The translations under genes and the position numbers were made by a program. The notes beneath the pieces were generated by a model, which saw nothing but the letters and a program-made list of their open reading frames with translations, did no database searches and was not told where the DNA came from. DNA of 64,000 nt, taken from a virus. The stretch lies in the UHGV virus genome UHGV-0128973; one strand, 5' to 3'. Below, in pieces: positions 34,900-50,344 of the stretch. Position 1 is the stretch's first letter, and every line of letters starts with the position of its first letter.

Positions 34900-36383
34900 T
34901 GGCCAGAAGTTGCGTAACGGACCCACGTTGGCGCGAGCTGGTGGCGCTATATCGTTATGACTGGATTGCGGCCGCTGATGTGTTGTTTGGGAAGACACCA
35001 ACCTGGCAGCAGGATGAGATCATTGAGTCCACGCAGCAGGACGGCAGTTGGACAAGTGTGACCTCCGGCCATGGTACTGGTAAATCGGATATGACGAGTA
35101 TCATTGCAATACTCTTCATCATGTTTTTCCCCGGCGCTCGCGTCATTCTGGTCGCTAACAAAAGACAGCAAGTCCTTGATGGTATTTTCAAATACATAAA
35201 GAGCAATTGGGCTACTGCTGTTAGCAGATTCCCGTGGTTGTCGAAGTATTTCATTCTTACAGAAACGTCTTTTTTTGAGGTGACTGGCAAGGGTGTTTGG
35301 ACAATATTGATAAAGTCCTGTCGCCCCGGGAATGAGGAGGCGTTGGCTGGTGAACACGCCGATCATCTCTTGTATATCATCGACGAAGCGTCGGGTGTGA
35401 GTGATAAAGCATTCAGTGTGATAACAGGTGCGCTGACCGGTAAGGATAACCGTATTCTGCTTCTTTCCCAGCCTACGCGACCTTCAGGCTATTTCTACGA
35501 TTCACACCACAGACTAGCTATTCGCCCGGGAAATCCTGATGGATTGTTTACTGCGATAATACTGAATAGTGAAGAATCTCCGCTTGTAGATGCAAAATTT
35601 ATACGAGCAAAACTTGCGGAGTATGGCGGTCGTGATAACCCCATGTACATGATCAAAGTACGTGGTGAATTTCCCAAATCTCAAGATGGCTTTCTTCTTG
35701 GTCGTGATGAGGTTGAGCGGGCGACGCGGCGAAAGGTCAAGATTGCCAAAGGATGGGGCTGGGTTGCATGTGTTGACGTTGCTGGTGGCACAGGACGAGA
35801 TAAATCCGTTATTAATATCATGATGGTGTCCGGCCAGCGAAATAAACGCCGTGTAATCAACTATCGTATGCTGGAATACACAGACGTTACAGAAACGCAG
35901 TTAGCCGCCAAGATTTTCGCAGAATGTAACCCAGAACGGTTCCCGAACATAACCATAGCTATTGATGGCGATGGCTTGGGGAAATCGACGGCTGATCTAA
36001 TGTACGAACGCTATGGCATTACCGTCCAGCGTATCCGCTGGGGTAAAAAGATGCACAGCCGTGAAGATAAAAGCCTTTATTTCGATATGCGCGCTTTCGC
36101 GAATATTCAGGCGGCAGAAGCTGTAAAATCAGGGCGTATGAGGCTTGATAAGGGGGCTGCGACTATAGAGGAAGCATCAAAGATACCGGTAGGGATAAAT
36201 TCCGCAGGTCAATGGAAGGTGATGTCAAAGGAAGATATGAAGAAAAAACTCAACCTGCACTCACCGGACCATTGGGATACATATTGTTTCGCTATGTTGG
36301 CGAACTATGTTCCCCAGGATGAAGTGCTTAGCGTCGAAGACGAAGCGCAGGTTGATGAAGCTCTGGCATGGCTTAATGAATAA
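34899..36383 (+). CDS. pacB: Terminase large subunit PacB
   Basis: 494 aa; start overlaps pacA stop; Walker A-like GHGTGKSD and nuclease region. Confidence 0.85.
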
Positions 36384-38412: not shown

Positions 38413-39444
38413 ATGTCCAATTTACTGACCGTACACCAAAATTTGCCTGCATTACCGGTCGATGCAACGAGTGATGAGGTTCGCAAGAACCTGATGGACA
38501 TGTTCAGGGATCGCCAGGCGTTTTCTGAGCATACCTGGAAAATGCTTCTGTCCGTTTGCCGATCGTGGGCGGCATGGTGCAAGTTGAATAACCGGAAATG
38601 GTTTCCCGCAGAACCTGAAGATGTTCGCGATTATCTTCTATATCTTCAGGCGCGCGGTCTGGCAGTGAAAACTATCCAGCAACATTTGGGCCAGCTAAAT
38701 ATGCTTCATCGTCGGTCCGGGCTGCCACGACCAAGTGACAGCAATGCTGTTTCACTGGTCATGCGACGGATCCGAAAAGAAAACGTTGATGCCGGTGAGC
38801 GTGCAAAACAGGCGCTGGCGTTCGAACGCACTGATTTCGACCAGGTTCGTTCACTCATGGAAAATAGCGATCGCTGCCAGGATATACGTAATCTGGCATT
38901 TCTGGGGATTGCTTATAACACCCTGTTACGTATAGCCGAAATTTCTAGGATCAGAGTTAAAGATATCTCACGTACTGACGGTGGGAGAATGTTAATCCAT
39001 ATTGGCAGAACGAAAACGCTGGTTAGCACCGCTGGTGTAGAGAAGGCACTTAGTCTGGGGGTAACTAAACTGGTTGAGCGATGGACTTCTGTCTCTGGTG
39101 TGGCTGATGATCCGAATAACTACTTGTTTTGCCGTGTCAGAAAAAATGGTGTTGCCGCGCCATCTGCCACCAGCCAGCTATCAACTCGCGCCCTGGAAGG
39201 GATTTTTGAAGCAACTCACCGATTGATTTACGGGGCTAAGGATGACTCTGGCCAGAGGTACCTGGCCTGGTCTGGACACAGTGCCCGTGTCGGAGCCGCG
39301 CGAGATATGGCCCGCGCCGGAGTTTCAATACCGGAGATCATGCAAGCTGGTGGCTGGACCAACGTAAATATTGTCATGAACTACATTCGTAACCTGGATA
39401 GTGAAACGGGGGCAATGGTGCGCCTGCTGGAAGATGGCGATTAG
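38413..39444 (+). CDS. cre: Cre tyrosine site-specific recombinase
   Basis: 343 aa, essentially the canonical Cre sequence (MSNLLTVHQNLPALPVD...), one visible difference near residue 264. Confidence 0.98.
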   Translation: MSNLLTVHQNLPALPVDATSDEVRKNLMDMFRDRQAFSEHTWKMLLSVCRSWAAWCKLNNRKWFPAEPEDVRDYLLYLQARGLAVKTIQQHLGQLNMLHRRSGLPRPSDSNAVSLVMRRIRKENVDAGERAKQALAFERTDFDQVRSLMENSDRCQDIRNLAFLGIAYNTLLRIAEISRIRVKDISRTDGGRMLIHIGRTKTLVSTAGVEKALSLGVTKLVERWTSVSGVADDPNNYLFCRVRKNGVAAPSATSQLSTRALEGIFEATHRLIYGAKDDSGQRYLAWSGHSARVGAARDMARAGVSIPEIMQAGGWTNVNIVMNYIRNLDSETGAMVRLLEDGD

Positions 39445-40051: not shown

Positions 40052-40612
40052 ATGAAAACAATCGAACAAAAACTTGAACAGCGCCGCGAGTGGCAGAAGG
40101 CAGCCAGAGAACGAGCGATCGCTCGGCAACGGGAAAAGTTGGCTGACCCCGCCTGGCGAGAATCGCAATATCAGAAAATGCGGGATTCTATCGACCGCCG
40201 TATCGCTAAACAGAAAGAGCGCCCACCAGCCAGCAAAACGCGGAAAAGTGCGGTAAAAATAAAATCTCGTGGCTTGAAGGGACGAACACCGACGGCGGAG
40301 GAACGGCGCATAGCCAATGCTCTTGGCGCTCTCCCCTGCATTGCCTGCTATATGCATGGAGTAATATCTGAAGAGGTGTCTCTGCACCATATCTCCGGTC
40401 GTACCGCGCCGGGTTGTCACAAAAAGCAGTTGCCACTTTGTAGATGGCACCACCAGCATGCAGCACCGGCTGAAGTAAGAGAAAAATACCCCTGGCTGGT
40501 CCCTGTTCATGCCGATGGTGTGGTTGGAGGCAAGAAAGAATTCACCTTGCTGAACAAGTCAGAGATGGAGTTGCTGGCTGACGCCTATGAGATGGCAAAC
40601 ATCATGCACTAA
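40052..40612 (+). CDS. ref: Ref (recombination enhancement function) HNH endonuclease
   Basis: 186 aa from MKTIEQKLEQ; Cys/His-rich HNH region (CIACYMHG...HH...CRWHHQH). Confidence 0.9.
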   Translation: MKTIEQKLEQRREWQKAARERAIARQREKLADPAWRESQYQKMRDSIDRRIAKQKERPPASKTRKSAVKIKSRGLKGRTPTAEERRIANALGALPCIACYMHGVISEEVSLHHISGRTAPGCHKKQLPLCRWHHQHAAPAEVREKYPWLVPVHADGVVGGKKEFTLLNKSEMELLADAYEMANIMH

Positions 40613-40800
40613 TAAATATATTATTTTTAATCTGAAATAATTGACAACTGACAAGTGACTTCAGTCAGAATCATCACATGCCCGGTACGGATGGATCCCT
40701 TTTCAAATATTCCATGGACGGCACAGTCTGAGTACCGGGCGCTACCTTAAGTTGTATTGCTAAGCCGCCGCTGGTGGCTTTTCTTTTTTGTAGGGGCGCT

Positions 40801-41442
40801 ATGGATAAGAAAATATGCGTTGTTTCGATGAGCGTCGGCAAACCGGCGTCAATGACTGCTGCATGGATCAACAACGAGCTGATAATGGCTGAGCGGACCA
40901 GCTACCCTGAACGCCGCCGCGATATGGAACTCCAGCTGCTGCGCGAATTGCGAGAAAAAGAGGAAAAGGGTTTTATCGTGCTGGTGGAAGAGGAAAACAG
41001 CTTTATTACTGGTCGAGTTGGCCAGCGTGTAAGGTTGCGCGATCCCTTCATGAACGGCAGGCCGGTACTAATTGAGGCCATGCAGATTTATAAGGAGCTG
41101 GAACGCCAGAAAGCAATCAAGTTACCGCGCAAGGAATCCGGCAAATACATCCTCCACCAAAGCATCTTCGATTCCGAACACGACAAAAAAGGCGATGAAT
41201 TTTTCAACATCAACTGGAGCGAAATAACGACAGAGCATGTTCTGACGTTACTATGTTGCTTTGCGACGGAATACAACAACGTTGCCAGCGCAGACTACAT
41301 CAGGGCAATGGCTGGAGAAGTTGAGGCACGCCAGGAACCATCGTTACTAAGCCCTCTGATTAACATAATTCGCGGAACCCAAACGCTGGCACAAAAACGG
41401 GTGCCGAAAGGGGAATTAACAGGAAAAGGAAATTATCTATAA
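40801..41442 (+). CDS. mat: Mat-like protein
   Basis: 213-aa ORF (start MDKKICVV) directly after ref as in P1. Confidence 0.6.
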   Translation: MDKKICVVSMSVGKPASMTAAWINNELIMAERTSYPERRRDMELQLLRELREKEEKGFIVLVEEENSFITGRVGQRVRLRDPFMNGRPVLIEAMQIYKELERQKAIKLPRKESGKYILHQSIFDSEHDKKGDEFFNINWSEITTEHVLTLLCCFATEYNNVASADYIRAMAGEVEARQEPSLLSPLINIIRGTQTLAQKRVPKGELTGKGNYL

Positions 41443-41498
41443 ACGTCAATGCATTAGGGTATACTTCTCCATAGAACTATAAGTAAATGGAGTAAGTA

Positions 41499-42806
41499 AT
41501 GAGCGAATATGTTGAGTTAGCATACGCTGCCGCTACAAGCAGGCTTTGTCTATTTACCGGGACTGGCTTTTCAAAGGCAGTCTCGAACGGCGAAGCTCCA
41601 ACGTGGAAAGAACTATTAAAAAAAGTTTGCAGCAAAGTTCACAACGCCAAACAGTTGGAAGACACGTTATTCCCTGATGATAAACCACCAGCATTGAGCC
41701 TTGAAGAAGCCGCACAAATACTATCTTTGAAGCTCAATATTGAGGGTAAGTCGATTTATGATGAAATTGTTGAGATCATATCTCCAATTCAACTTGGAGA
41801 AGATATATCAAATATAAAAGATTTTTTTCAAAAAAATTCATTCCGTGTCATTACAACAAATTATGACAAGTTAGCTGAATGCTTAACTGGAGATGAGGAA
41901 GTACAGTCTATTACCCCGGGCTTACCTATTCCTAAATACTCATCTAAAGTTAAAATATATCATGTCCATGGTTCTATTGATTCACCAAAAAACATGGTTG
42001 TTACTTCAGAAGACTACTTCAGGTTTATAAACTCTGACACCTATTTTTCACAAAAACTTAGTACGATACTACATGAAAATACAGTTGTGATATTAGGATA
42101 TTCTTTAAGTGATACAAACCTTAAGGCAATTATAAATAGTTATAAGACATTTTCTAAAGATAATGCACTGTGCTCTAATATATTCTTCATATCTCATGGC
42201 GAAGTAAGTCAAGACATGAAGGACTATTACTTTTATTGTTTTGGAATAAGGGTAATTGACAATACGGAAATAGATGATTTCTTTCATCGACTGAGCAGTA
42301 AGATACTGCTCATAGAAGATATAATAGAGAGAGCTCGTGAAAACATTAGAAAAGTTATTGTAGGTTCTCATACATATAAGAATGAATATATTAGATTAGA
42401 AGACTCATTTTATCAGATAATTTCTTCAATTATATCTGAAGGTTTGGATTGGAGTGACAGCAGAGTTGTTGAATTTTTTAAGAGGATAATAGAACAAAAA
42501 AGAAATTTAACAAGAGAGAGCGGCGCTTGGGAGCAATATGAACAACTTGCAAAATGGCTTATATATTTTGGAAGTATCATAGAAATTGCTGGCACTAAAT
42601 ATGAAAAAGCATATTTAGAAGCAGTCGAATACTCAATGTCCAATATGAGCAAAGAAAGACGGTTAGGTTATTCGTGGCATGCTTATAGAGCTTGGGAAAC
42701 GCGATGGTCTACAATCATTGCTTCAAATCGATTAATTATAAAAAAACACATCGAGGAACTTGGCGTACTGGATGACGCCAATTCTATAGTGAAAAATATA
42801 GTGTAA
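41499..42806 (+). CDS. SIR2-family (SIR2_2-like) protein with uncharacterised helical C-terminal domain; candidate NAD+-dependent defence effector
   Basis: FTGTGFS (res 19-25), VITTNYD (117-123), YHVHGS (154-159), GYSLSD (200-205) in canonical SIR2 order; AT-rich; sits between mat and lxc. Confidence 0.7.
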   Translation: MSEYVELAYAAATSRLCLFTGTGFSKAVSNGEAPTWKELLKKVCSKVHNAKQLEDTLFPDDKPPALSLEEAAQILSLKLNIEGKSIYDEIVEIISPIQLGEDISNIKDFFQKNSFRVITTNYDKLAECLTGDEEVQSITPGLPIPKYSSKVKIYHVHGSIDSPKNMVVTSEDYFRFINSDTYFSQKLSTILHENTVVILGYSLSDTNLKAIINSYKTFSKDNALCSNIFFISHGEVSQDMKDYYFYCFGIRVIDNTEIDDFFHRLSSKILLIEDIIERARENIRKVIVGSHTYKNEYIRLEDSFYQIISSIISEGLDWSDSRVVEFFKRIIEQKRNLTRESGAWEQYEQLAKWLIYFGSIIEIAGTKYEKAYLEAVEYSMSNMSKERRLGYSWHAYRAWETRWSTIIASNRLIIKKHIEELGVLDDANSIVKNIV

Positions 42807-42857
42807 TTGAAACGCTGCAAACATTTAACGGGCAGCTACAACTGCCCGATATATAAA

Positions 42858-43106
42858 TCAATCCGCATTCAGGAGCAATGCATTATCTATGATGATTTGC
42901 TCCCATTCTTCGAATGCCCGGTCGCGGACGCCCTGGGGAACGCTGTTAGTTTTGAAATCGACGACCGTCCGCCATTTTCCGTCCGGACGGTACATGCGCA
43001 GAGCTTTACTTCCCCCTTCCCTGCGCACCTCAACGTTATGCTTATCAGCAAACTCTTGTAATGCTCGTAGCGTCCCATGCTTTACTGTGTAGTATCGCTT
43101 TTTCAA
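42858..43106 (-). CDS. lxc: Lxc/Bof-like protein
   Basis: 82-aa ORF at the P1 lxc position. Confidence 0.6.
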   Translation of the reverse strand: MKKRYYTVKHGTLRALQEFADKHNVEVRREGGSKALRMYRPDGKWRTVVDFKTNSVPQGVRDRAFEEWEQIIIDNALLLNAD

Positions 43107-43543
43107 GTTTTCTCTCCAGCCTGTGCTAAGGCTTCAACTTCCAAATCGTAAGACTCAAACTCATAGTCCTGGTCGTCAACCTCTTCAGGCACTGGCAGTA
43201 AATGCCAGGCTGAGTATATCTGACCATTATCAAAACGCTCCTGGCTGTAGAGCGTCGCAGCTATGAGCGTCAGCGCCGGGCGGTCATAACGGTAAATTTT
43301 GCGAACGTCACGGTCAACGAGACGACCGAAATTACCATAACCGCGCTCCAGTAATAATTTTTTAATTTCCGGCCAGTATGGACCATAGCTGCGGTACAGG
43401 CGGGGATTTTTCAGTAATCGCCCGCGTAGCCCTGACAGGAAGAAATCAACGTATTCGTCTTCTGTCTTTCCTAACAACGCCGTACGCAGTACCGCCTCAA
43501 GATATGTTTTATTCGGTTTTATTGTATCAGATAGTGTGGCCAT
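43103..43543 (-). CDS. ulx: Ulx-like protein
   Basis: 146-aa ORF between lxc and darB, overlapping lxc start. Confidence 0.6.
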   Translation of the reverse strand: MATLSDTIKPNKTYLEAVLRTALLGKTEDEYVDFFLSGLRGRLLKNPRLYRSYGPYWPEIKKLLLERGYGNFGRLVDRDVRKIYRYDRPALTLIAATLYSQERFDNGQIYSAWHLLPVPEEVDDQDYEFESYDLEVEALAQAGEKT

Positions 43544-43576
43544 ATTATGCGACGCCCGGCGAACCGGGCGCTCCTG

Positions 43577-46500
43577 TTATGCGTATTGTTGGATGACGGC
43601 CAGAACGTCCGCCACGTTGTGTTTTGTCTCGATAATCCACCAGTTACCCGGGAAATCGCTGTTCTTCGCCTTCGCTGGCAGCCAGCGAGCGCCGAATTTC
43701 GCCTTGATTGCGTCTTTCGCACGGAAAAGAACGCCTTTCATGCCTGAGGCTTCCTGAAGCCCAAATACCTCGCCAGCGGCGAATTTTGGTGCGTACATCA
43801 TCTTCAGGTCGGCGGTGGATACGCGATAATTCAGACCAAGAGACTGAGCTATGCTGGTGGCATCACCCTGTATTGATGATAACTCTTCTTGTTTCTCGTT
43901 TCTGGCGGCAATCTCTTCCTCCGTGATGTTGCCAAGGGCCAGGTTTATCCGATCAGCGTCGGCCTGTTTCTCTTCATCGGTGCGCCCGGCAAGAACCGTG
44001 TTAATTCTCTGCAATATCTCCACATGATTCTTGCGCATGCTGAGCAATTCCGGCGTAACCTCGTTAAGATCCACCAGCCCAAGGATGGCAAGGTCGGAAA
44101 ACATTGATACCAGGTTGTAGGTCATGCGATAGCTGAGTTGACCATAGGCTGATGGCAACTTCACCGCATCCATTTGATAGGCATCCATAAATTTAGAGCC
44201 GTCGTTTACGACATCCGCTATTGCAGGTGTGATTTTCCCTGTGGTGGCGGCCTCCCTGATTGCTGTTACCCACGATTGAGTCAGCGCGGCGACTGCATGA
44301 TTCAGATTGGCTTCCCGTTCTGCTGCGATGCGCGCGCTTGCTGCGTCCATTGCCTGCTTGATCTCGGCTTTATTGCTGTAAATGCCAATGGTGCCAAACT
44401 GTGCTGTGGTGATCTCATAATCTGACGCCCGGAACTCATGGGTACCGAAAATAGCATTGGTGACCTCAAGTTCAGAATCCCCGTTACGAGTAGCCCCCAG
44501 GCTTGTTTTCTCCGGCATTTTGGCGATCGAATCCGCTATTTTCTCCTGAAGTGCTTCAGGGGATAGCGTATCTCCGTATGACGCGATTACATCGCCATAA
44601 TTGGAGCCAAACAGTTCAGTCAGGAATACTTCTGCCAAACGGACCTGGCGGTTATTCCCTTCAGACATCATACCATGCACCCATTTTGCAATTGACGACT
44701 TCAGCGCGCCGTCACGGCGATCCGGGTAAACCGCATGCTTCAGTGGGTCCGTATAGGTACCAACAAAATCAATGCTATACCCTGACTCTGTAGTCTGAAC
44801 GCCGTATGAGTCAGTGATTTTGATCATGCCGCGCTGCTGGAAACGGTAGAAATCGTCACAGGAAATGATGTCGTTAATCCCGGCGATGGAGACGCCACCA
44901 CTGATTTTCTGCATAACAGCATCTTCATCGGGAGTTACATCAACCTGTTTATCCAGCGTCTTCACATCCCAGTTACCCGATTTGGTACCTTTGAAGGTAA
45001 AGATAATCTCCACGTCTGCGCGCTGGCTGTCGAAGTCCAGCGACTTAATGCGAACGATATCACCGGCACAATCGTAGTATTGGCCTACACGCCATGAGCG
45101 ATCGCCGATAACAAGGAACTCACTCGCATGGTTAACCAGGTCAGGATCAACATCCAGAATGCCTTTATTTATTGCATCCTCCACCAGCGGGCGCAGGCGT
45201 TTGATATCCGTCGCGGCCTTCTGGGTACGGTTCAATAATTTCTCATAGCGGGAGATGGCTTGAGAGATATTAGCCTTCTGTTGAATAGCATTTTTTAACG
45301 AAGCGCGATATCGAGCTAACAACATACGGTCAGCGTTATGGACACTCCCCCAACGTGCCTTCCAGTCTGCGTTATCAGCTGCTTTGGCCATTGCTGCTTG
45401 TTTGAATTTGTCGACGTCGGCGGTGATCTTTTCAAGTTCCGCTTTGCTTCGCTCCAATTCAGCGGTAAGAGCTTCTACATCTTCACCAGATGCGTGCTGC
45501 GCCTTGATGTAGTTCTGAAGGTCGATAGTAGCCTGTTCTTTCTGGCGAGCGCGTTGCGCGGCTTTCGCCTTATCCATTTGAACCTGCATCATTGCCAGAC
45601 GTTCGCCATCATCCTTAGCGGTATACATCTGCATTTCGATCATATCGTTGGCGTCGGCGTTCTCCATTTCTGACTTATCTGAACGGAGGATATCGGAGAT
45701 CCAGCCTGCTTTACGCTTCAGCGTCTTCAGTCGGTATTCATCGAAAGAACCCTTGCCGCAGTAGTAGTGAACGCGAACGCTTGCACGGTTGGAACCAACT
45801 CGGGCACCGCGACCGTTACGCTGTGCGATACTGGCTGGTGTCCATGGCAACGTCAGATGATGGATGTCAGTCGTTCCTCGATGCAGGTTGATACCCACCT
45901 CTGCCTTTTTGTTGCAGATGATGATCGGAGTCCGGCCCTCCTGGAAGTCGGCAGCAATCTTTTCCAGCCCGCCCAGCGACATTTCATTTTGCTGCGCGAT
46001 ATAGGCGTCATACAGAGCCATTTGCTCGTTGTATTTCGCTATCTGTGCATCTGTTGGTTCATCCGGTAGCTCTTTCGGCGGTTTAACCGCTTTCAGTTTC
46101 TTACCGGTTTTACCTGCCTCGGCAACCGTCTGAGCATTCAGGATCCCCACCTTTGAAGGTTCAAGGTTAAGAGCATTGCAGATAATGCGCTTGAGCTTCT
46201 GGTGCTGCGTTTTTTCATCGGTGAAGATGATTTGCTTACCTTCCGGGAAAAACTCCTTCAGCGTGGCGATCAGCTTCGCGTATTTTGGTGTAACGGGGTG
46301 AGTTACGGTCTGTTCGTCAATGCCAAACCTGGCCAGGCGCTTATTCACTTCCTGCTCGAACGCTTCCGGAACCTGCAACTGAATAAACTCGCCCTTATCT
46401 ATCAGGGAGTATTGCGATTGCTGCGTGATTGAATCATCACTGTCGTCGTCTTCGCTGGTGGCTTGTTTAGGCAAACTGTCCGCCAGCTGCTGCACCGCAT

Positions 46501-49500
46501 CGGCGTACTCCGGCAGGAAACGATAGGTGATCCGGCGATAGTACAGGTCCATGTCAGTACATACGCGGTCCATATCCCTGATTATTGAGAAGATCGGACG
46601 GGCTTTCTCGTGCTCAATCACGCCGTCTTCATTGACCGAGGTCGTTACGCCATTGTTGGCTTTGGCTGCCGCTTCCGCCTGCTGACGCAATTCTTCATAC
46701 GCCGCCAGTTGTTCTTCAGTAAGTGGCGCATCCTGCTGGTGTTCGTCCAGCTCCGGGATCTCCACGGTATCCTTAACGTCTTCCGCTGTTTTAAGCGTTG
46801 TCCAGCGATGGAATATGCCGCGCAGCGCATCAAGGTTTTCAAAGCCCACCAGCGCCATTTTTTCTTCAACTTCACCGCTGATTTTCTGTACCGTTTCCAG
46901 CCTGGTCTTGCCGAAGAATTTAACGAAGTCATCAGGACCGTAGATCCCCATCTTCTGCCAGTATTCCTTCGGCAGAACATGAGAAAGCATGTTGTATGCA
47001 TCGATCGGGGTGTTAACGACTGGCGTTGCAGTCAGGAGAACCGGTCCGCGCCCGCCATTCTTTTTCATCAGGTACGCGTTTTTGATTGCCATATCCCGCG
47101 CCGATTGCGCCACCGCGCTGGTGGGCAGATAGGCCAGTTGTGACGCTTCGCGACCATTTTTATAGCTATTGCGGTAGTTGTGGCCTTCGTCGGCGATCAC
47201 GCTGTCGAAGCCCATATCCTCAAAGTACGGATACTTCTCTGCTTTTTCGGTACCGGTATCTGAATACTCCGACAATACCCGGCGACGCGCCGCCTCTTTG
47301 CGATGGGAATCGGAGTCCATTGCGCTGGCCACACGCCCGGCAGCAACGAAGTCATAAAGCATGTCTTGTGCATGCTCATCTACGGTGTCATCACGTAGCG
47401 GAATGCGGGCGTATTGTTCTTTGGTAAACACGACTGCACGGTAGTTTGAGTGCGGGATCGCGTTCATCCGCGCCGTGATAGTGGCTTCATCTGCCAGCTT
47501 AAGAGCATCGCGCATAACTGGAGTGCCATCAGCACCAAGAACAGGTTTACCGTTCTCATCGAGCACCGGCACCTGGCGAATCTGATCGCCATCCATCAGC
47601 ACATCAAGACCGACGAACAGGTAGTTACTGAATGCCTCTTCACTCAGGAATTCTTTTGCTTCGTAATACCAGTTTTCCAGCACTGATTTAGGCACTACAT
47701 ACGCAGTACGGGTGGAGCGACCGTTCTCATAGTTGAACGCCTCAAGTGCCAGCGCGGTCGTGGTTTTACCCAGCCCGGTGCCGAAGCCCAGGATGCCGCG
47801 CCCATCTTCGGACAGTCGGCGCACCTCGCTATTCTGGTAATCAAATGGCTGACGCTTACCGCTTAATCCCTTCAACCCAAGCGGATCACCAGAGTGTTCA
47901 TACGGAATATTGCTATTGAAAACATCGTTGTATTTGGCAACCAGCTCATCGTAGCGATCGTGCGTCTTGATCCACTTATTGAACTGGTCCTCAAGCAGTG
48001 CCATCTGCTCGCGGTAGCCGTTCGCCGTCGCGCTATCTTTGCCACCGATACGCGCACCATTGAGATACTTTTCCAGCTGTGCCGGGAACCCGGTCGCGTT
48101 TTCACCTGATTTACGGTCCCACTCGTAGCGGATCTCGCCTGTTTCTTTATCCTTGCGCTGGACGACACCGTATCGGTGCCCGACGAACAGGCCATCACCA
48201 CCGTGATAGGTGTCAGAAACCATTTCGTCGCCTTCCAGCTGCACTGACTGCACATAGCGCAGATCCGGATAGCCGTTTTCCTGCAAAAACTCCAGAATGA
48301 CGGAACGGTCGAACCAACGGCTATTGAGCTTAAAGCGGATATTCTCTGCTGGCGTCTTGATGCGCTTCTCTTCGATCGCTGCCAGCTGATTAAGGACGTT
48401 GTTCTTTACTGGACCGTCGGGGAGCGTGGCGAGGAATTCCTGTTTTGGAGCCACTATCTCGTTAATGTCGCCGCTGGTGGCGCGGGCGAACGGAACAATC
48501 CCGCCATACGGTGAAACCGCAATACCAGGGGTGCTGGCCAATAAATTAAGCAACTCTTCATCACTGGCTGGCAGTTCGCCGGTAAACGCAAGGCGGAAAT
48601 CATCGAGCTGGATTGGATCGCGGGTAAGATCGCTATAGAGATAACGCAGGGTGTCCTGATAGCTGGTGGAGTCATAACTGGCGCTGGAATCATGCGTAAC
48701 CAGCTTTCCTGCCAGCTCGTCAGAAATAGTGCCATCCAGCTTAATTGCACCACGGAAAGCAAACCAGGAGCGCGCACCGCTTCCCGATAATTTAGCTATC
48801 GGACCGCGACCGGGGTTACCAAAACGGTCAATCTCTGCCTGCAAACGGGACACCAGAGAAAGGCGCTGTTGTTCGATTTGTTCAGCACTATGCCCGGCGG
48901 CCTTCATGTCCTGATATTCAATTAACATCCGGCCAATCATCGCCCCGCGATACAAGCGTTCACGGTATTTTTCAGGCTGGCTGTTAATCCAGTCCACCAG
49001 CTGCACCATATCGTCGCTGATTGATGTGGTGTACTTATCGCGGACATTTGCCATCTGGGTAAATGTCATGCCGAGACGGCCTTCTGTTGTAGTCAGGTTA
49101 CGCTGAAGAGCCTCCCAGCTATCCGCGCCATAACTGGCAGCATCGATCTTAAGTTCCTTCCCGGCATCAGCTTCAATCCAGCGACCACCAGCATATTTTT
49201 GCCATACGCCATTAATCAGGCGCATTTCCCCTTCACCAACAACGTCTGCGGTCGGTGACGGTTCAGCCATATCGAGCAAAGACCAGTCGATACGGCTTTC
49301 GAAACGATGAATCAGCTTCGCTTTAAGAGCCTGGTTATCAATCTGACCGTCGGCACGAACCTCAATACGCCCCTGGAAGCCCTTTTCCTGGGTGCCATGA
49401 ACAAACCGGCGGCCATCCTTTTCAAACCACTTGCCAGAAATAAACGTTGGCCAAAGCACATTTGCCGATTCAAGAGTGCTTTCATCCACCAGGGGGATTT

Positions 49501-50344
49501 TCTCAGCCATCTCTGCCGGATGTTTGCGCATCAGCACCACATCTACGACCGTACTGGTCCCGTTTGCGTCAAAAGTACCGGTAGGCAGGCGGTGGGCACC
49601 AAGAAATTCAGCTTTCCGTGATAGGCGCAGGCGTAACCGCTTCATGTTTGAACCTGAAACAATGGACGGCGGCACAATCACGCACATGAATCCGCCTGGC
49701 TTTATTTTGTCCAGCATGCGGAGCATGAAGTAAGAACCCATGTCCGTTTCTTCTGCGTAAGGCTTATCGATGTTGCGTGTGTTATCACGACCGCCGAACG
49801 GAACGTTACCCACAACATGGTCGAATGAATCGTTAGGCGTGCTTACAGCCAGCTGTTCGAACGGGGAAATCTGTACGCTGTCTTCCGGGTGTAACAACTG
49901 GTTTATACGACCGGAAACACTGCTGATCTCAGTCGCGGTCATCACCGTACCAACCGGTTTTGTCTCATTAAAAACGCCGGTTCCCGCCGATGGTTCCAGA
50001 GTGTTACCTACGTCCGCGCCGTAGAGCTTCATGATCTCCCAGACACCTTCAGCGATCGGCTTTGGTGTGTAATATTCGGAGACGGACCCGCCAATGCCGC
50101 CTTCACCGGTGTACCCAGCCAGGATCTGGCGCTGTTCATCTGTCAGTGTCGCGCCGTCCACCAGCGAATTAAGCAAATCTATCGCCTTCTGATTCGCCTC
50201 CCGGCGCAGTCGGTCATAGCTTTTGCCTTCCACCTTTTCCACGCCATATTTAATCGGCGCTCGGTGAGATATTATTGCCCTAATGTATTTCAATATTTCG
50301 CTGACACTTGAACAGCGAAACACCCCCATAGATAGCTTGTTCAT
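43577..50344 (-). CDS. darB: DarB antirestriction protein (giant methyltransferase/helicase)
   Basis: 2255-aa ORF; N-terminal N6-MTase-like region (NVPFGG), central SF2 helicase motifs (GTGLGKT, DEGH). Confidence 0.9.
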   Translation of the reverse strand: MNKLSMGVFRCSSVSEILKYIRAIISHRAPIKYGVEKVEGKSYDRLRREANQKAIDLLNSLVDGATLTDEQRQILAGYTGEGGIGGSVSEYYTPKPIAEGVWEIMKLYGADVGNTLEPSAGTGVFNETKPVGTVMTATEISSVSGRINQLLHPEDSVQISPFEQLAVSTPNDSFDHVVGNVPFGGRDNTRNIDKPYAEETDMGSYFMLRMLDKIKPGGFMCVIVPPSIVSGSNMKRLRLRLSRKAEFLGAHRLPTGTFDANGTSTVVDVVLMRKHPAEMAEKIPLVDESTLESANVLWPTFISGKWFEKDGRRFVHGTQEKGFQGRIEVRADGQIDNQALKAKLIHRFESRIDWSLLDMAEPSPTADVVGEGEMRLINGVWQKYAGGRWIEADAGKELKIDAASYGADSWEALQRNLTTTEGRLGMTFTQMANVRDKYTTSISDDMVQLVDWINSQPEKYRERLYRGAMIGRMLIEYQDMKAAGHSAEQIEQQRLSLVSRLQAEIDRFGNPGRGPIAKLSGSGARSWFAFRGAIKLDGTISDELAGKLVTHDSSASYDSTSYQDTLRYLYSDLTRDPIQLDDFRLAFTGELPASDEELLNLLASTPGIAVSPYGGIVPFARATSGDINEIVAPKQEFLATLPDGPVKNNVLNQLAAIEEKRIKTPAENIRFKLNSRWFDRSVILEFLQENGYPDLRYVQSVQLEGDEMVSDTYHGGDGLFVGHRYGVVQRKDKETGEIRYEWDRKSGENATGFPAQLEKYLNGARIGGKDSATANGYREQMALLEDQFNKWIKTHDRYDELVAKYNDVFNSNIPYEHSGDPLGLKGLSGKRQPFDYQNSEVRRLSEDGRGILGFGTGLGKTTTALALEAFNYENGRSTRTAYVVPKSVLENWYYEAKEFLSEEAFSNYLFVGLDVLMDGDQIRQVPVLDENGKPVLGADGTPVMRDALKLADEATITARMNAIPHSNYRAVVFTKEQYARIPLRDDTVDEHAQDMLYDFVAAGRVASAMDSDSHRKEAARRRVLSEYSDTGTEKAEKYPYFEDMGFDSVIADEGHNYRNSYKNGREASQLAYLPTSAVAQSARDMAIKNAYLMKKNGGRGPVLLTATPVVNTPIDAYNMLSHVLPKEYWQKMGIYGPDDFVKFFGKTRLETVQKISGEVEEKMALVGFENLDALRGIFHRWTTLKTAEDVKDTVEIPELDEHQQDAPLTEEQLAAYEELRQQAEAAAKANNGVTTSVNEDGVIEHEKARPIFSIIRDMDRVCTDMDLYYRRITYRFLPEYADAVQQLADSLPKQATSEDDDSDDSITQQSQYSLIDKGEFIQLQVPEAFEQEVNKRLARFGIDEQTVTHPVTPKYAKLIATLKEFFPEGKQIIFTDEKTQHQKLKRIICNALNLEPSKVGILNAQTVAEAGKTGKKLKAVKPPKELPDEPTDAQIAKYNEQMALYDAYIAQQNEMSLGGLEKIAADFQEGRTPIIICNKKAEVGINLHRGTTDIHHLTLPWTPASIAQRNGRGARVGSNRASVRVHYYCGKGSFDEYRLKTLKRKAGWISDILRSDKSEMENADANDMIEMQMYTAKDDGERLAMMQVQMDKAKAAQRARQKEQATIDLQNYIKAQHASGEDVEALTAELERSKAELEKITADVDKFKQAAMAKAADNADWKARWGSVHNADRMLLARYRASLKNAIQQKANISQAISRYEKLLNRTQKAATDIKRLRPLVEDAINKGILDVDPDLVNHASEFLVIGDRSWRVGQYYDCAGDIVRIKSLDFDSQRADVEIIFTFKGTKSGNWDVKTLDKQVDVTPDEDAVMQKISGGVSIAGINDIISCDDFYRFQQRGMIKITDSYGVQTTESGYSIDFVGTYTDPLKHAVYPDRRDGALKSSIAKWVHGMMSEGNNRQVRLAEVFLTELFGSNYGDVIASYGDTLSPEALQEKIADSIAKMPEKTSLGATRNGDSELEVTNAIFGTHEFRASDYEITTAQFGTIGIYSNKAEIKQAMDAASARIAAEREANLNHAVAALTQSWVTAIREAATTGKITPAIADVVNDGSKFMDAYQMDAVKLPSAYGQLSYRMTYNLVSMFSDLAILGLVDLNEVTPELLSMRKNHVEILQRINTVLAGRTDEEKQADADRINLALGNITEEEIAARNEKQEELSSIQGDATSIAQSLGLNYRVSTADLKMMYAPKFAAGEVFGLQEASGMKGVLFRAKDAIKAKFGARWLPAKAKNSDFPGNWWIIETKHNVADVLAVIQQYA

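What the first reader, a model, noticed from the sequence alone, without database searches (positions are those of the whole stretch)
41499..42806. SIR2-family single-gene candidate defence module in the res-mod slot of a P1-type backbone
The 435-aa protein carries the SIR2 hallmarks in canonical order: Rossmann glycine motif FTGTGFS (19-25), catalytic-region TTNYD (119-123), HxHGS (155-159) and GYSLSD (200-205). The C-terminal ~225 residues are helical with no motif I recognise, so it is not a ThsA-type SLOG sensor. The gene is visibly AT-rich against a ~50% GC backbone, has its own RBS, ends in a GC hairpin (42829-42847), and is flanked by mat and lxc. There are no adjacent partner ORFs such as TIR, HerA or pAgo. 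It sits next to the phage's own antirestriction genes, consistent with a defence/anti-defence hotspot.
Basis: partly seen in the sequence, partly recalled or inferred. Interest (0 to 1): 0.9.

Follow-up and report, generated by a model that had tools for sequence, protein, structure and literature searches.

The report
Untested SIR2 defence-like gene in P1
A P1-type phage-plasmid carries, where phage P1 keeps its restriction enzyme, one gene for a probable NAD-destroying SIR2 enzyme fused to a small helical-repeat domain; it is a good but untested anti-phage defence candidate of a familiar kind.

Summary

The N-terminal ~255 residues are a SIR2_2 domain. Its catalytic Asn121 and His157 align with DSR2 and ThsA. 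Residues 256-435 form an all-helical HEAT/ARM-like solenoid. That domain was found only fused to SIR2 (96 hits among 1.84 billion cluster representatives).

The mat-lxc interval is a cargo slot:
- empty in RCS47
- EcoP1I res/mod in P1
- the validated defence protein CapRelSJ46 in SJ46

About 9% of E. coli genomes carrying this lxc-ulx backbone segment have the SIR2 gene. It occurs as at least four alleles under strong purifying selection. Homologues at 53-61% identity lie singly at a lambdoid-prophage edge and beside Gabija, DUF4297-HerA and NsnA-like genes. No partner gene is conserved.

Most likely it is a self-contained sensor-effector NADase, a DSR2-like design at under half the size. It fails the membership tests for DSR1/2, ThsA, SIR2-HerA, Lamassu, KomC and PDC-S25.

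Function is inferred, not shown. Expression in the lysogen is unresolved. It is a new variant of a known kind, of moderate interest.

The parts
40603..40675 (+). Upstream control region of mat: the C1 operator Omat, Pmat and the late promoter LPmat. It may also drive the SIR2 gene.
   Evidence: The sequence is nearly identical to P1 2628-2696, where these features are annotated.
40801..41442 (+). mat (maturation control), the left backbone flank of the slot.
   Evidence: ORF. Annotated as mat in RCS47, SJ46 and P1. No similarity to genes upstream of SIR2 homologues elsewhere.
41416..41443 (+). Weak sigma-70-like match, TTAACA-16 nt-TATAAA, overlapping the mat stop codon. A candidate own promoter, unproven.
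   Evidence: Custom scan, 10 of 12 matches, but no T at position 6 of the -10 hexamer. Missed by the standard scan.
41443..41498 (+). 56-nt cargo leader with the RBS GGAG at 41489-41492. No hairpin or terminator separates mat from the SIR2 gene.
   Evidence: leader fold z = -0.5. The leader is identical in the 85% allele.
41499..42806 (+). SIR2-solenoid gene, 435 aa plus stop codon.
41499..42263 (+). SIR2_2 (NADase-type) domain, aa 1-255. Key residues: GTGFS 21-25, N121 (41859-41861), D123, H157 (41967-41969), GYSLSD 200-205.
   Evidence: Pfam, E = 1e-23. The PDB profile alignment puts TTNYD and HVHG against the DSR2 and ThsA motifs. Foldseek to DSR2, E = 3e-13. These residues are invariant in 36 homologues.
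42264..42803 (+). C-terminal all-helical alpha-solenoid, aa 256-435. Proposed sensor and autoinhibitory domain. Invariant residues include W344, W353, W393, W399 and W403.
41880..42857 (.). Diverged allelic segment: 70-86% nucleotide identity between alleles, while the first ~380 nt of the gene and the backbone are 96-100% identical.
42829..42848 (.). G+C hairpin between the SIR2 stop and the lxc stop, with 7 bp stem and 6-nt loop. It marks the right end of the cargo.
   Evidence: Conserved in the 85% allele, and other cargoes carry analogous hairpins. No T-run.
42858..43106 (-). lxc, the right backbone flank of the slot.
43103..50344 (-). ulx and darB, the anti-restriction genes next to the slot.

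Best explanation
The gene is single-gene cargo in the mat-lxc slot of a P1-like phage-plasmid. It encodes a self-contained sensor-effector protein.

The N-terminal SIR2_2 domain is an NAD+ glycohydrolase with catalytic N121 and H157. The C-terminal ~180-residue alpha-solenoid is proposed to hold the enzyme inactive and to bind a protein of a superinfecting phage. Binding would release the NADase, NAD+ would collapse, and the infected lysogen would stop supporting phage growth (abortive infection). This would protect sister cells that carry the P1-like element.

Shown here: domain identity, conserved catalytic residues, the solenoid fold, single-gene status, the nature of the slot, purifying selection, and defence-island neighbours of homologues.

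Inferred: NADase activity, a protein trigger, autoinhibition, abortive infection, and expression in the lysogen.
For: Enzyme:
- SIR2_2 scores 84.5 bits.
- The family profile aligns TTNYD and HVHG to the catalytic motifs of the NADases DSR2, ThsA and KomC (the PDB entry names cite DSR2 H171A and KomC H146N).
- Foldseek's best hits are DSR2 (E = 3e-13), ThsA and KomC. TM-score is 0.74 to a DSR2 chain that contains only the SIR2 domain.
- N121, D123, H157 and the GTGFS motif are invariant in 36 homologues.

Sensor:
- A confident all-helical model has HEAT/ARM-type matches. DSR2 likewise joins SIR2 to helical repeats.
- The domain always occurs fused to SIR2.
- Its non-synonymous divergence is 2-3 times that of the SIR2 core.

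Single gene:
- The empty slot in RCS47 delimits the cargo to 41443-42857.
- Seven other contexts show no conserved neighbour.

Defence setting:
- The same slot holds EcoP1I res/mod in P1 and CapRelSJ46 in SJ46.
- Homologues sit beside complete Gabija plus PDC-S21, beside DUF4297-HerA plus a PD-T7-4-like gene, and near an NsnA/PD-T4-2A-like gene about 4.7 kb away.
- One homologue lies at a lambdoid-prophage edge next to the integrase.

Functional gene:
- At least four alleles, all 435 codons, with dN/dS 0.04-0.21 at dS about 0.5-1.4.
- 62 of 63 E. coli copies cover at least 80% of the gene.
Against: - No phenotype, NAD+ measurement or trigger exists for any member of this family.
- No convincing own promoter was found.
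- The gene lies 56 nt downstream of mat, in the same orientation, with no intervening hairpin. In P1, mat is annotated as controlled by the C1 operator Omat and carries a late promoter. If the SIR2 gene is expressed only from there, it would be silent in the lysogen, which fits prophage-encoded immunity poorly.
- HEAT-like matches are generic and do not identify a ligand.
- The relative orientation of the two domains in the full-length model is uncertain (pTM 0.64).
Confidence: 0.6

Rival explanations
1. The protein is an orphan SIR2 effector that needs something encoded elsewhere. That could be a small-molecule signal, as for Thoeris ThsA or Kongming KomC, or a partner such as HerA or LmuB. 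The solenoid would then be a docking or oligomerisation domain rather than a phage sensor.
For: PADLOC gives domain-level matches to ThsA (E = 1e-17) and to a 433-position LmuA model (E = 2e-16). KomC and ThsA are among the structural neighbours. A weak LmuB-like SMC gene lies near the Paracidovorax homologue.
Against: No partner is conserved across eight contexts. The P1 cargo is exactly one gene. The tail is all-helical, with no SLOG-like alpha/beta fold. The Halomonas HerA is paired with its own DUF4297 gene.
Confidence: 0.13
2. The gene serves the phage's own lytic cycle or acts in counter-defence. It would be co-transcribed with mat from the C1-repressed or late promoter and would act on host NAD+ or host proteins during P1 development, alongside the neighbouring Dar anti-restriction genes.
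For: It has the same orientation as mat, a 56-nt gap, no terminator between them, and a conserved Omat/Pmat/LPmat region. darB and ulx are adjacent.
Against: Close homologues sit in non-phage chromosomal defence islands and in a Rhizobium housekeeping neighbourhood. The slot is dispensable: it is empty in RCS47. Other occupants of the slot are host-protective systems. No full-length homologue exists in 50,697 deposited phage genomes.
Confidence: 0.12
3. The protein is a housekeeping-type NAD-dependent protein deacylase, or an ADP-ribosyltransferase acting on a specific target. This is what the current RefSeq product name implies.
For: RefSeq/PGAP names it 'SIR2 family NAD-dependent protein deacylase'. 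The SIR2 superfamily includes such enzymes.
Against: It matches SIR2_2 (PF13289). No canonical sirtuin family appeared among the Pfam hits at E <= 1. The sequence has no CxxC pairs for the sirtuin zinc module. All close structural relatives are defence NADases. It has the distribution of mobile, AT-rich, multi-allelic cargo.
Confidence: 0.1
4. The gene is a decaying or functionless hitchhiker.
For: Nothing specific beyond its foreign base composition.
Against: All four sequenced alleles are intact at 435 codons. dN/dS is 0.04-0.21 with near-saturated synonymous change. The family holds 53-61% identity across several proteobacterial classes, with about 110 invariant columns.
Confidence: 0.02

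Closest known systems
DSR2 (defence-associated sirtuin 2, Bacillus subtilis; PDB 8wkt, 8k98 and others)
   Same: An N-terminal SIR2_2 NADase domain with the same TTNYD and HG catalytic motifs, followed by an all-helical repeat region, in a single polypeptide. It is the best Foldseek and PDB-profile match.
   Different: DSR2 is about 1,000 aa and this protein is 435 aa. Only the SIR2 part shows sequence similarity (25.8 bits against the NCBIfam cut-off of 1400). The solenoid here has no detectable sequence relation to the DSR2 helical domains. Trigger and oligomeric state are unknown.
Thoeris ThsA (SIR2-SLOG)
   Same: Similar size (about 476 aa) and the same SIR2 NADase domain.
   Different: ThsA has a C-terminal SLOG domain that binds gcADPR and needs a TIR partner, ThsB. 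Here the tail is an alpha-solenoid and there is no TIR gene.
PADLOC candidate PDC-S25 (single-gene, untested)
   Same: The best PADLOC hit (97.5 bits), and also a single-gene SIR2-containing candidate.
   Different: The match covers only profile positions 126-288 of 517, which is the SIR2 core. The C-terminal domain matches no PADLOC model.
CapRelSJ46 (fused toxin-antitoxin of Salmonella phage SJ46)
   Same: It occupies the identical mat-lxc slot, on the same strand, in a sister P1-like element. It is a single polypeptide with an N-terminal toxic enzyme and a variable C-terminal sensor. It is experimentally validated (PMC9712102).
   Different: The proteins are unrelated: CapRel is a tRNA-pyrophosphorylating toxSAS, not a SIR2. 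CapRel also has a 112-nt leader with a hairpin after mat, which the SIR2 cargo lacks.
EcoP1I res/mod of phage P1
   Same: The same slot in the reference P1 genome. It is the classical prophage-encoded defence of P1.
   Different: A two-gene type III restriction-modification system on the opposite strand with its own mapped promoters. There is no sequence relation.

Membership tests
Pfam SIR2_2 (PF13289) domain family | Score above the curated gathering threshold | tested here: met
   84.5 bits against 24.5, residues 117-250.
SIR2 NADase-type defence effectors (general) | Catalytic Asn and His aligned with those of characterised NADases | tested here: met
   TTN121YD and HVH157G align with the DSR2 VITTNYD / KVHGD and ThsA TTNYD / KMHGD motifs. 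Both residues are invariant in 36 homologues.
SIR2 NADase-type defence effectors (general) | NAD+ hydrolysis and phage protection | not testable with these tools
   Needs biochemistry and plaque assays.
DSR2 | Full-length equivalog match (NCBIfam NF041819, cut-off 1400 bits); about 1,000 aa with long helical middle and C-terminal domains | tested here: not met
   25.8 bits, SIR2 core only. The protein is 435 aa.
DSR1 | Full-length equivalog match (NCBIfam NF041818, cut-off 1400 bits) | tested here: not met
   27.8 bits, residues 112-211 only.
Thoeris ThsA | C-terminal SLOG (alpha/beta) signal-binding domain | tested here: not met
   The C-terminal model is helical apart from one isolated beta-bridge and matches HEAT/ARM solenoids. 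The ThsA HMM match stops at residue 223-226.
Thoeris ThsA | Adjacent TIR-domain ThsB gene | tested here: not met
   The neighbours are mat and lxc. There is no TIR gene in seven other contexts.
SIR2-HerA (Nezha) | Adjacent HerA ATPase gene | tested here: not met
   None in the window. The only nearby HerA (Halomonas) is paired with DUF4297 and is separated from the SIR2 homologue by two ORFs.
Lamassu (LmuA with SIR2 effector) | Adjacent LmuB SMC-like gene, and a full-length LmuA match | tested here: not met
   The LmuA model matches only positions 14-223 of 433. There is no SMC gene in the window.
Kongming KomC | SIR2-only protein of about 264-278 aa with komA and komB neighbours | tested here: not met
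   The protein has an extra 180-aa domain and no such neighbours.
PADLOC PDC-S25 | Full-length coverage of the 517-528-position profile | tested here: not met
   Only profile positions 126-288 are matched. The C-terminus has no PADLOC hit.
Canonical sirtuin deacylases | Match to a canonical sirtuin Pfam family, and a Cys4 zinc module | tested here: not met
   The only Pfam families at E <= 1 are SIR2_2 and a sub-threshold DUF3892. The sequence has no CxxC pairs.
Cargo of the P1-like mat-lxc (res-mod) variable slot | Lies between the mat stop and the lxc stop, where related elements carry nothing or other cargo | tested here: met
   RCS47 is empty (39 bp), P1 has res/mod, and SJ46 has CapRel. 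The region is listed as variable region 1 in PMC9603915.

The most novel reading that the evidence does not exclude
This roughly 435-aa SIR2-solenoid family may be the smallest autonomous SIR2 immune receptor. A four-to-five-repeat solenoid, not found with any other effector here, would directly recognise a phage protein and switch on NAD+ depletion. The four natural P1-borne alleles, which share a 5' third and differ over the 3' two-thirds of the gene (the rest of the SIR2 domain and all of the solenoid), would then be specificity variants exchanged by recombination within the gene. A further twist is possible: the gene may be wired to P1's C1-repressed/late mat promoter, so that it fires only when immunity breaks down.
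Probability: 0.35. Interest if true: 0.65.

Novelty: new variant of a known kind. Interest (0 to 1): 0.45.

Why it matters
If confirmed, this would add a compact, single-gene SIR2 NADase defence with a private sensor domain. It is carried by roughly 1 in 10 of the E. coli genomes that have this P1-type lxc-ulx backbone.

DefenseFinder gave no SIR2 or Dsr call in a published screen of P1-like elements (the supplement was truncated as stored). PADLOC models match only the SIR2 core.

The gene sits in the same slot as CapRelSJ46 and EcoP1I. The mat-lxc interval is therefore a tractable natural cassette site for finding and comparing prophage-borne immunity.

The four natural alleles offer ready-made material for mapping sensor specificity.

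It also bears on phage-therapy and transduction work, because P1-like plasmids are common in clinical E. coli.

Tried and rejected
- mat as a conserved partner: no similarity to the gene upstream of the Pseudoalteromonas homologue.
- Upstream genes in Pseudoalteromonas and Halomonas as a shared partner: no alignment between them, and no PADLOC hits.
- Antisense ORFs inside the gene: the 88-aa ORF is not conserved across alleles.
- Sequence relatives of the C-terminal domain in PDB or PADLOC: none.
- Effector swapping on the solenoid: none seen. Every full-length hit is SIR2-fused.
- Viral structure library (BFVD): nothing significant.
- Phage genome collection: no nucleotide hit and no full-length protein hit.
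- Canonical intrinsic terminator after the gene: there is a hairpin but no T-run.
- A strong own promoter: not found.
- AlphaFold DB Foldseek search: library unavailable.
- Literature: one search was wasted on a bad term. Accession and PHROG-id searches found nothing. PDC-S25 appears in one paper, only as a PADLOC call. The Sir2-containing system of Vassallo et al. appears to be the HerA-linked PD-T7-2 rather than this family. No PD-T4, PD-T7 or PD-lambda PADLOC model hit this protein.

Full report
**1. Observation**

The ORF 41499-42806 (+) exists as described: ATG start, 435 codons. The four motifs are at the stated residues. GC falls to 0.30-0.34 inside the gene, against 0.45-0.56 on both sides. 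A GGAG lies 6 nt upstream of the ATG.

A 7-bp G+C hairpin at 42829-42848 follows the stop codon (dG -16.3 kcal/mol, z = -3.05). It has no T-run and was not scored as an intrinsic terminator.

The window is a P1-type backbone. It carries cre at 38413-39444, then c8, ref and mat on the + strand, and lxc, ulx and darB on the - strand. It also has 16 matches to the C1 operator consensus, where 0.3 are expected by chance.

**2. What the protein is**

*SIR2 domain.* Pfam SIR2_2 matches residues 117-250 at 84.5 bits, against a cut-off of 24.5. A profile built from 36 homologues hits the solved NADases DSR2, ThsA and KomC. The alignment puts TTN121YD and HVH157G against their catalytic motifs. An AlphaFold2 model of the whole protein (pLDDT 82.7) finds DSR2 first by Foldseek (E = 3e-13). 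The TM-score is 0.74 to a DSR2 chain that contains only the SIR2 domain. ThsA and KomC follow.

No canonical sirtuin family appeared among the Pfam hits at E <= 1. The sequence has no CxxC pairs for a sirtuin zinc module. The RefSeq label 'protein deacylase' is therefore probably a generic name.

A profile of this domain, searched against 1.84 billion cluster representatives, found only 96 hits. Every full-length hit is 346-480 aa, with the domain placed after an N-terminal region that is about 255 residues long in nearly all of them. All ten distant ones that were tested carry SIR2_2.

The architecture is therefore a closed two-domain family: SIR2 plus a private short solenoid.

**3. The locus**

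Comparison with sister elements shows that mat-lxc is a cargo slot.

| Element | Content of the mat-lxc interval |
|---|---|
| RCS47 | Empty: 39 bp containing a hairpin |
| P1 | EcoP1I res/mod, plus IS5 in the reference strain |
| SJ46 | A 373-aa RelA/SpoT protein |
| This window | The SIR2 gene; cargo is 41443-42857 |

The SJ46 protein has R79, R116, Y155, L280 and L307, the residues named for CapRelSJ46 in PMC9712102. It is therefore that experimentally validated defence protein. JL22, Ro157c2YLVW and MH422554 carry yet other genes in the slot.

The res-mod region is already published as 'highly variable region 1', of low GC, in P1-like phage-plasmids (PMC9603915). That paper's text does not mention a SIR2 gene.

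In this window the cargo is exactly one gene with its leader and hairpin.

**4. Distribution and evolution**

- The gene is in 58 PLSDB plasmids.
- It is in 63 of 5,426 complete E. coli genomes, and 65 of the 66 places are on plasmids.
- The lxc-ulx backbone segment is in 699 genomes, so about 9% of them carry the gene.
- It is absent from 50,697 deposited phage genomes at both nucleotide and full-length protein level.

At least four alleles exist, all of 435 codons. The first ~380 nt and the backbone are 96-100% identical between alleles. From about 41880 to the hairpin, identity drops to 70-86%, which points to recombination within the gene.

dN/dS is 0.04-0.21, with dS of about 0.5-1.4 in the diverged part. 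The solenoid accumulates 2-3 times more non-synonymous change than the SIR2 core. This is a functional gene, and its tail evolves faster.

A DefenseFinder v1.3.0 screen of 846 P1-like contigs reports RM III, dGTPase, PrrC and CapRel. It lists no SIR2 or Dsr system in the text or in the held part of the supplement, which was truncated when stored (10.1101/2025.09.12.675607). That tool therefore does not appear to recognise the gene.

**5. Wider family and neighbours**

There are 689 homologues. Full-length relatives of about 434 aa share 53-61% identity across Gamma-, Beta- and Alphaproteobacteria. The alignment has about 110 invariant columns, including five tryptophans in the solenoid.

| Host | Neighbourhood of the homologue |
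|---|---|
| E. coli chromosome | Edge of a lambdoid prophage, next to the integrase |
| Pseudomonas putida | Just downstream of complete Gabija (GajA 493 bits, GajB 375 bits); PDC-S21 nearby |
| Halomonas | Between a PD-T7-4-like gene and a DUF4297-HerA pair |
| Vibrio cholerae | An NsnA/PD-T4-2A-like gene about 4.7 kb downstream |
| Paracidovorax | Near a weak LmuB-like SMC gene |
| Pseudoalteromonas | Among unrelated genes |
| Rhizobium | Among unrelated genes |

No neighbour is shared between contexts. This is the pattern expected of a mobile, single-gene defence module.

**6. Mechanism**

The best-supported model is a sensor-effector fusion, like DSR2 but at less than half the size. The solenoid restrains the SIR2 NADase until it binds a phage protein. 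NAD+ depletion then aborts the infection.

Shown here: the fold, the catalytic residues, single-gene status, the genomic setting and selection on the gene.

Inferred: the enzyme activity, the trigger, autoinhibition and the outcome for the cell.

The main weakness is expression. No good own promoter was found. The best candidate is TTAACA-16 nt-TATAAA at 41416-41443, and it lacks the conserved final T. The gene follows mat by 56 nt with no hairpin in between. By contrast, the CapRel cargo in SJ46 has a 112-nt leader with a hairpin after mat.

The Omat/Pmat/LPmat region of P1 is conserved in the window. Read-through from a C1-repressed or late promoter is therefore possible. That keeps alive a rival in which the gene acts during P1's own lytic cycle.

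**7. Comparison with known systems**

The protein works like DSR2, but it is not a member of DSR1 or DSR2. The equivalog models score 26-28 bits against a cut-off of 1400.

| System | Reason membership fails |
|---|---|
| ThsA | No SLOG domain and no TIR neighbour |
| SIR2-HerA | No adjacent HerA |
| Lamassu | No adjacent LmuB; LmuA model matched only over its first half |
| KomC | Extra 180-aa domain; no komA or komB |
| PDC-S25 | Only the SIR2 core of the profile is matched |

PHROG 7567 covers the protein at full length but is labelled 'unknown function'.

**8. Verdict**

The finding is a credible, apparently untested single-gene SIR2 defence candidate with a family-private sensor-like domain. 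It sits in a slot that also hosts two proven defence systems.

It is a new variant of a known kind, not a new principle. The gene is already annotated as SIR2-family, and the slot is already known to be variable. Interest is 0.45.

Noticed in passing
window 40762-40780 (+), with the T-run to about 40790: A terminator-like hairpin plus T-run lies between the LPmat promoter region and the mat ATG at 40801. It is conserved in P1, where it falls inside the annotated 250-aa Mat ORF. This suggests either that the shorter 213-aa start is the real one, or that mat (and anything downstream) is subject to attenuation.
   Followed up: partly
window 41460-41496: In the predicted fold of the mat-SIR2 leader, a CUCC-containing stretch pairs with the GGAG ribosome-binding site. 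The fold is no better than shuffled sequence (z = -0.5), so it is probably not meaningful.
   Followed up: yes
window-wide, e.g. 6950, 22674, 37818, 39462, 39937, 54124: There are 16 matches (up to 3 mismatches) to the P1 C1 operator consensus ATTGCTCTAATAAATTT, where 0.3 are expected by chance. The P1 immunity network appears intact in this element.
   Followed up: no
window 35498-36381, compared with L002 (pDC71-1): This stretch does not align between the window and pDC71-1. Upstream of the c1 repressor gene, one relative is annotated with a terminase and the other with a KilAC antirepressor. This is a second variable region near the slot.
   Followed up: no
window 45280-45479 (inside darB): A patch of 82-90% identity sits inside an otherwise 96-100% identical darB, seen against both compared plasmids. 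This may reflect mosaicism or diversifying change in the anti-restriction gene.
   Followed up: no
L022 1587-2537 (-); L023 986-1585 (-) and 1838-2560 (+); L024 1642-2682 (-): Other natural occupants of the mat-lxc slot are uncharacterised. JL22 gp7 (316 aa) hits PDC-S34 only weakly and partially. The two Ro157c2YLVW genes have no PADLOC hit. MH422554 has an unannotated 346-aa ORF in the slot, which was not scanned. These are further untested cargo candidates.
   Followed up: partly
L019 8504-9952 (+) and 12556-13566 (+): In Pseudomonas putida, the SIR2 homologue is followed by a 482-aa protein with no Pfam or PADLOC hit. Further on there is a full-length PDC-S21 (DUF4917) gene. All of this lies just downstream of Gabija, so the region is a dense defence island.
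   Followed up: partly
window 42413-42652 (-): A 55-56-aa antisense ORF (counted from its first Met) recurs at about the same position in three alleles, and a 77-aa one nearby in the fourth. It is probably a by-product of sense-strand codon constraints. The peptides were not compared.
   Followed up: partly
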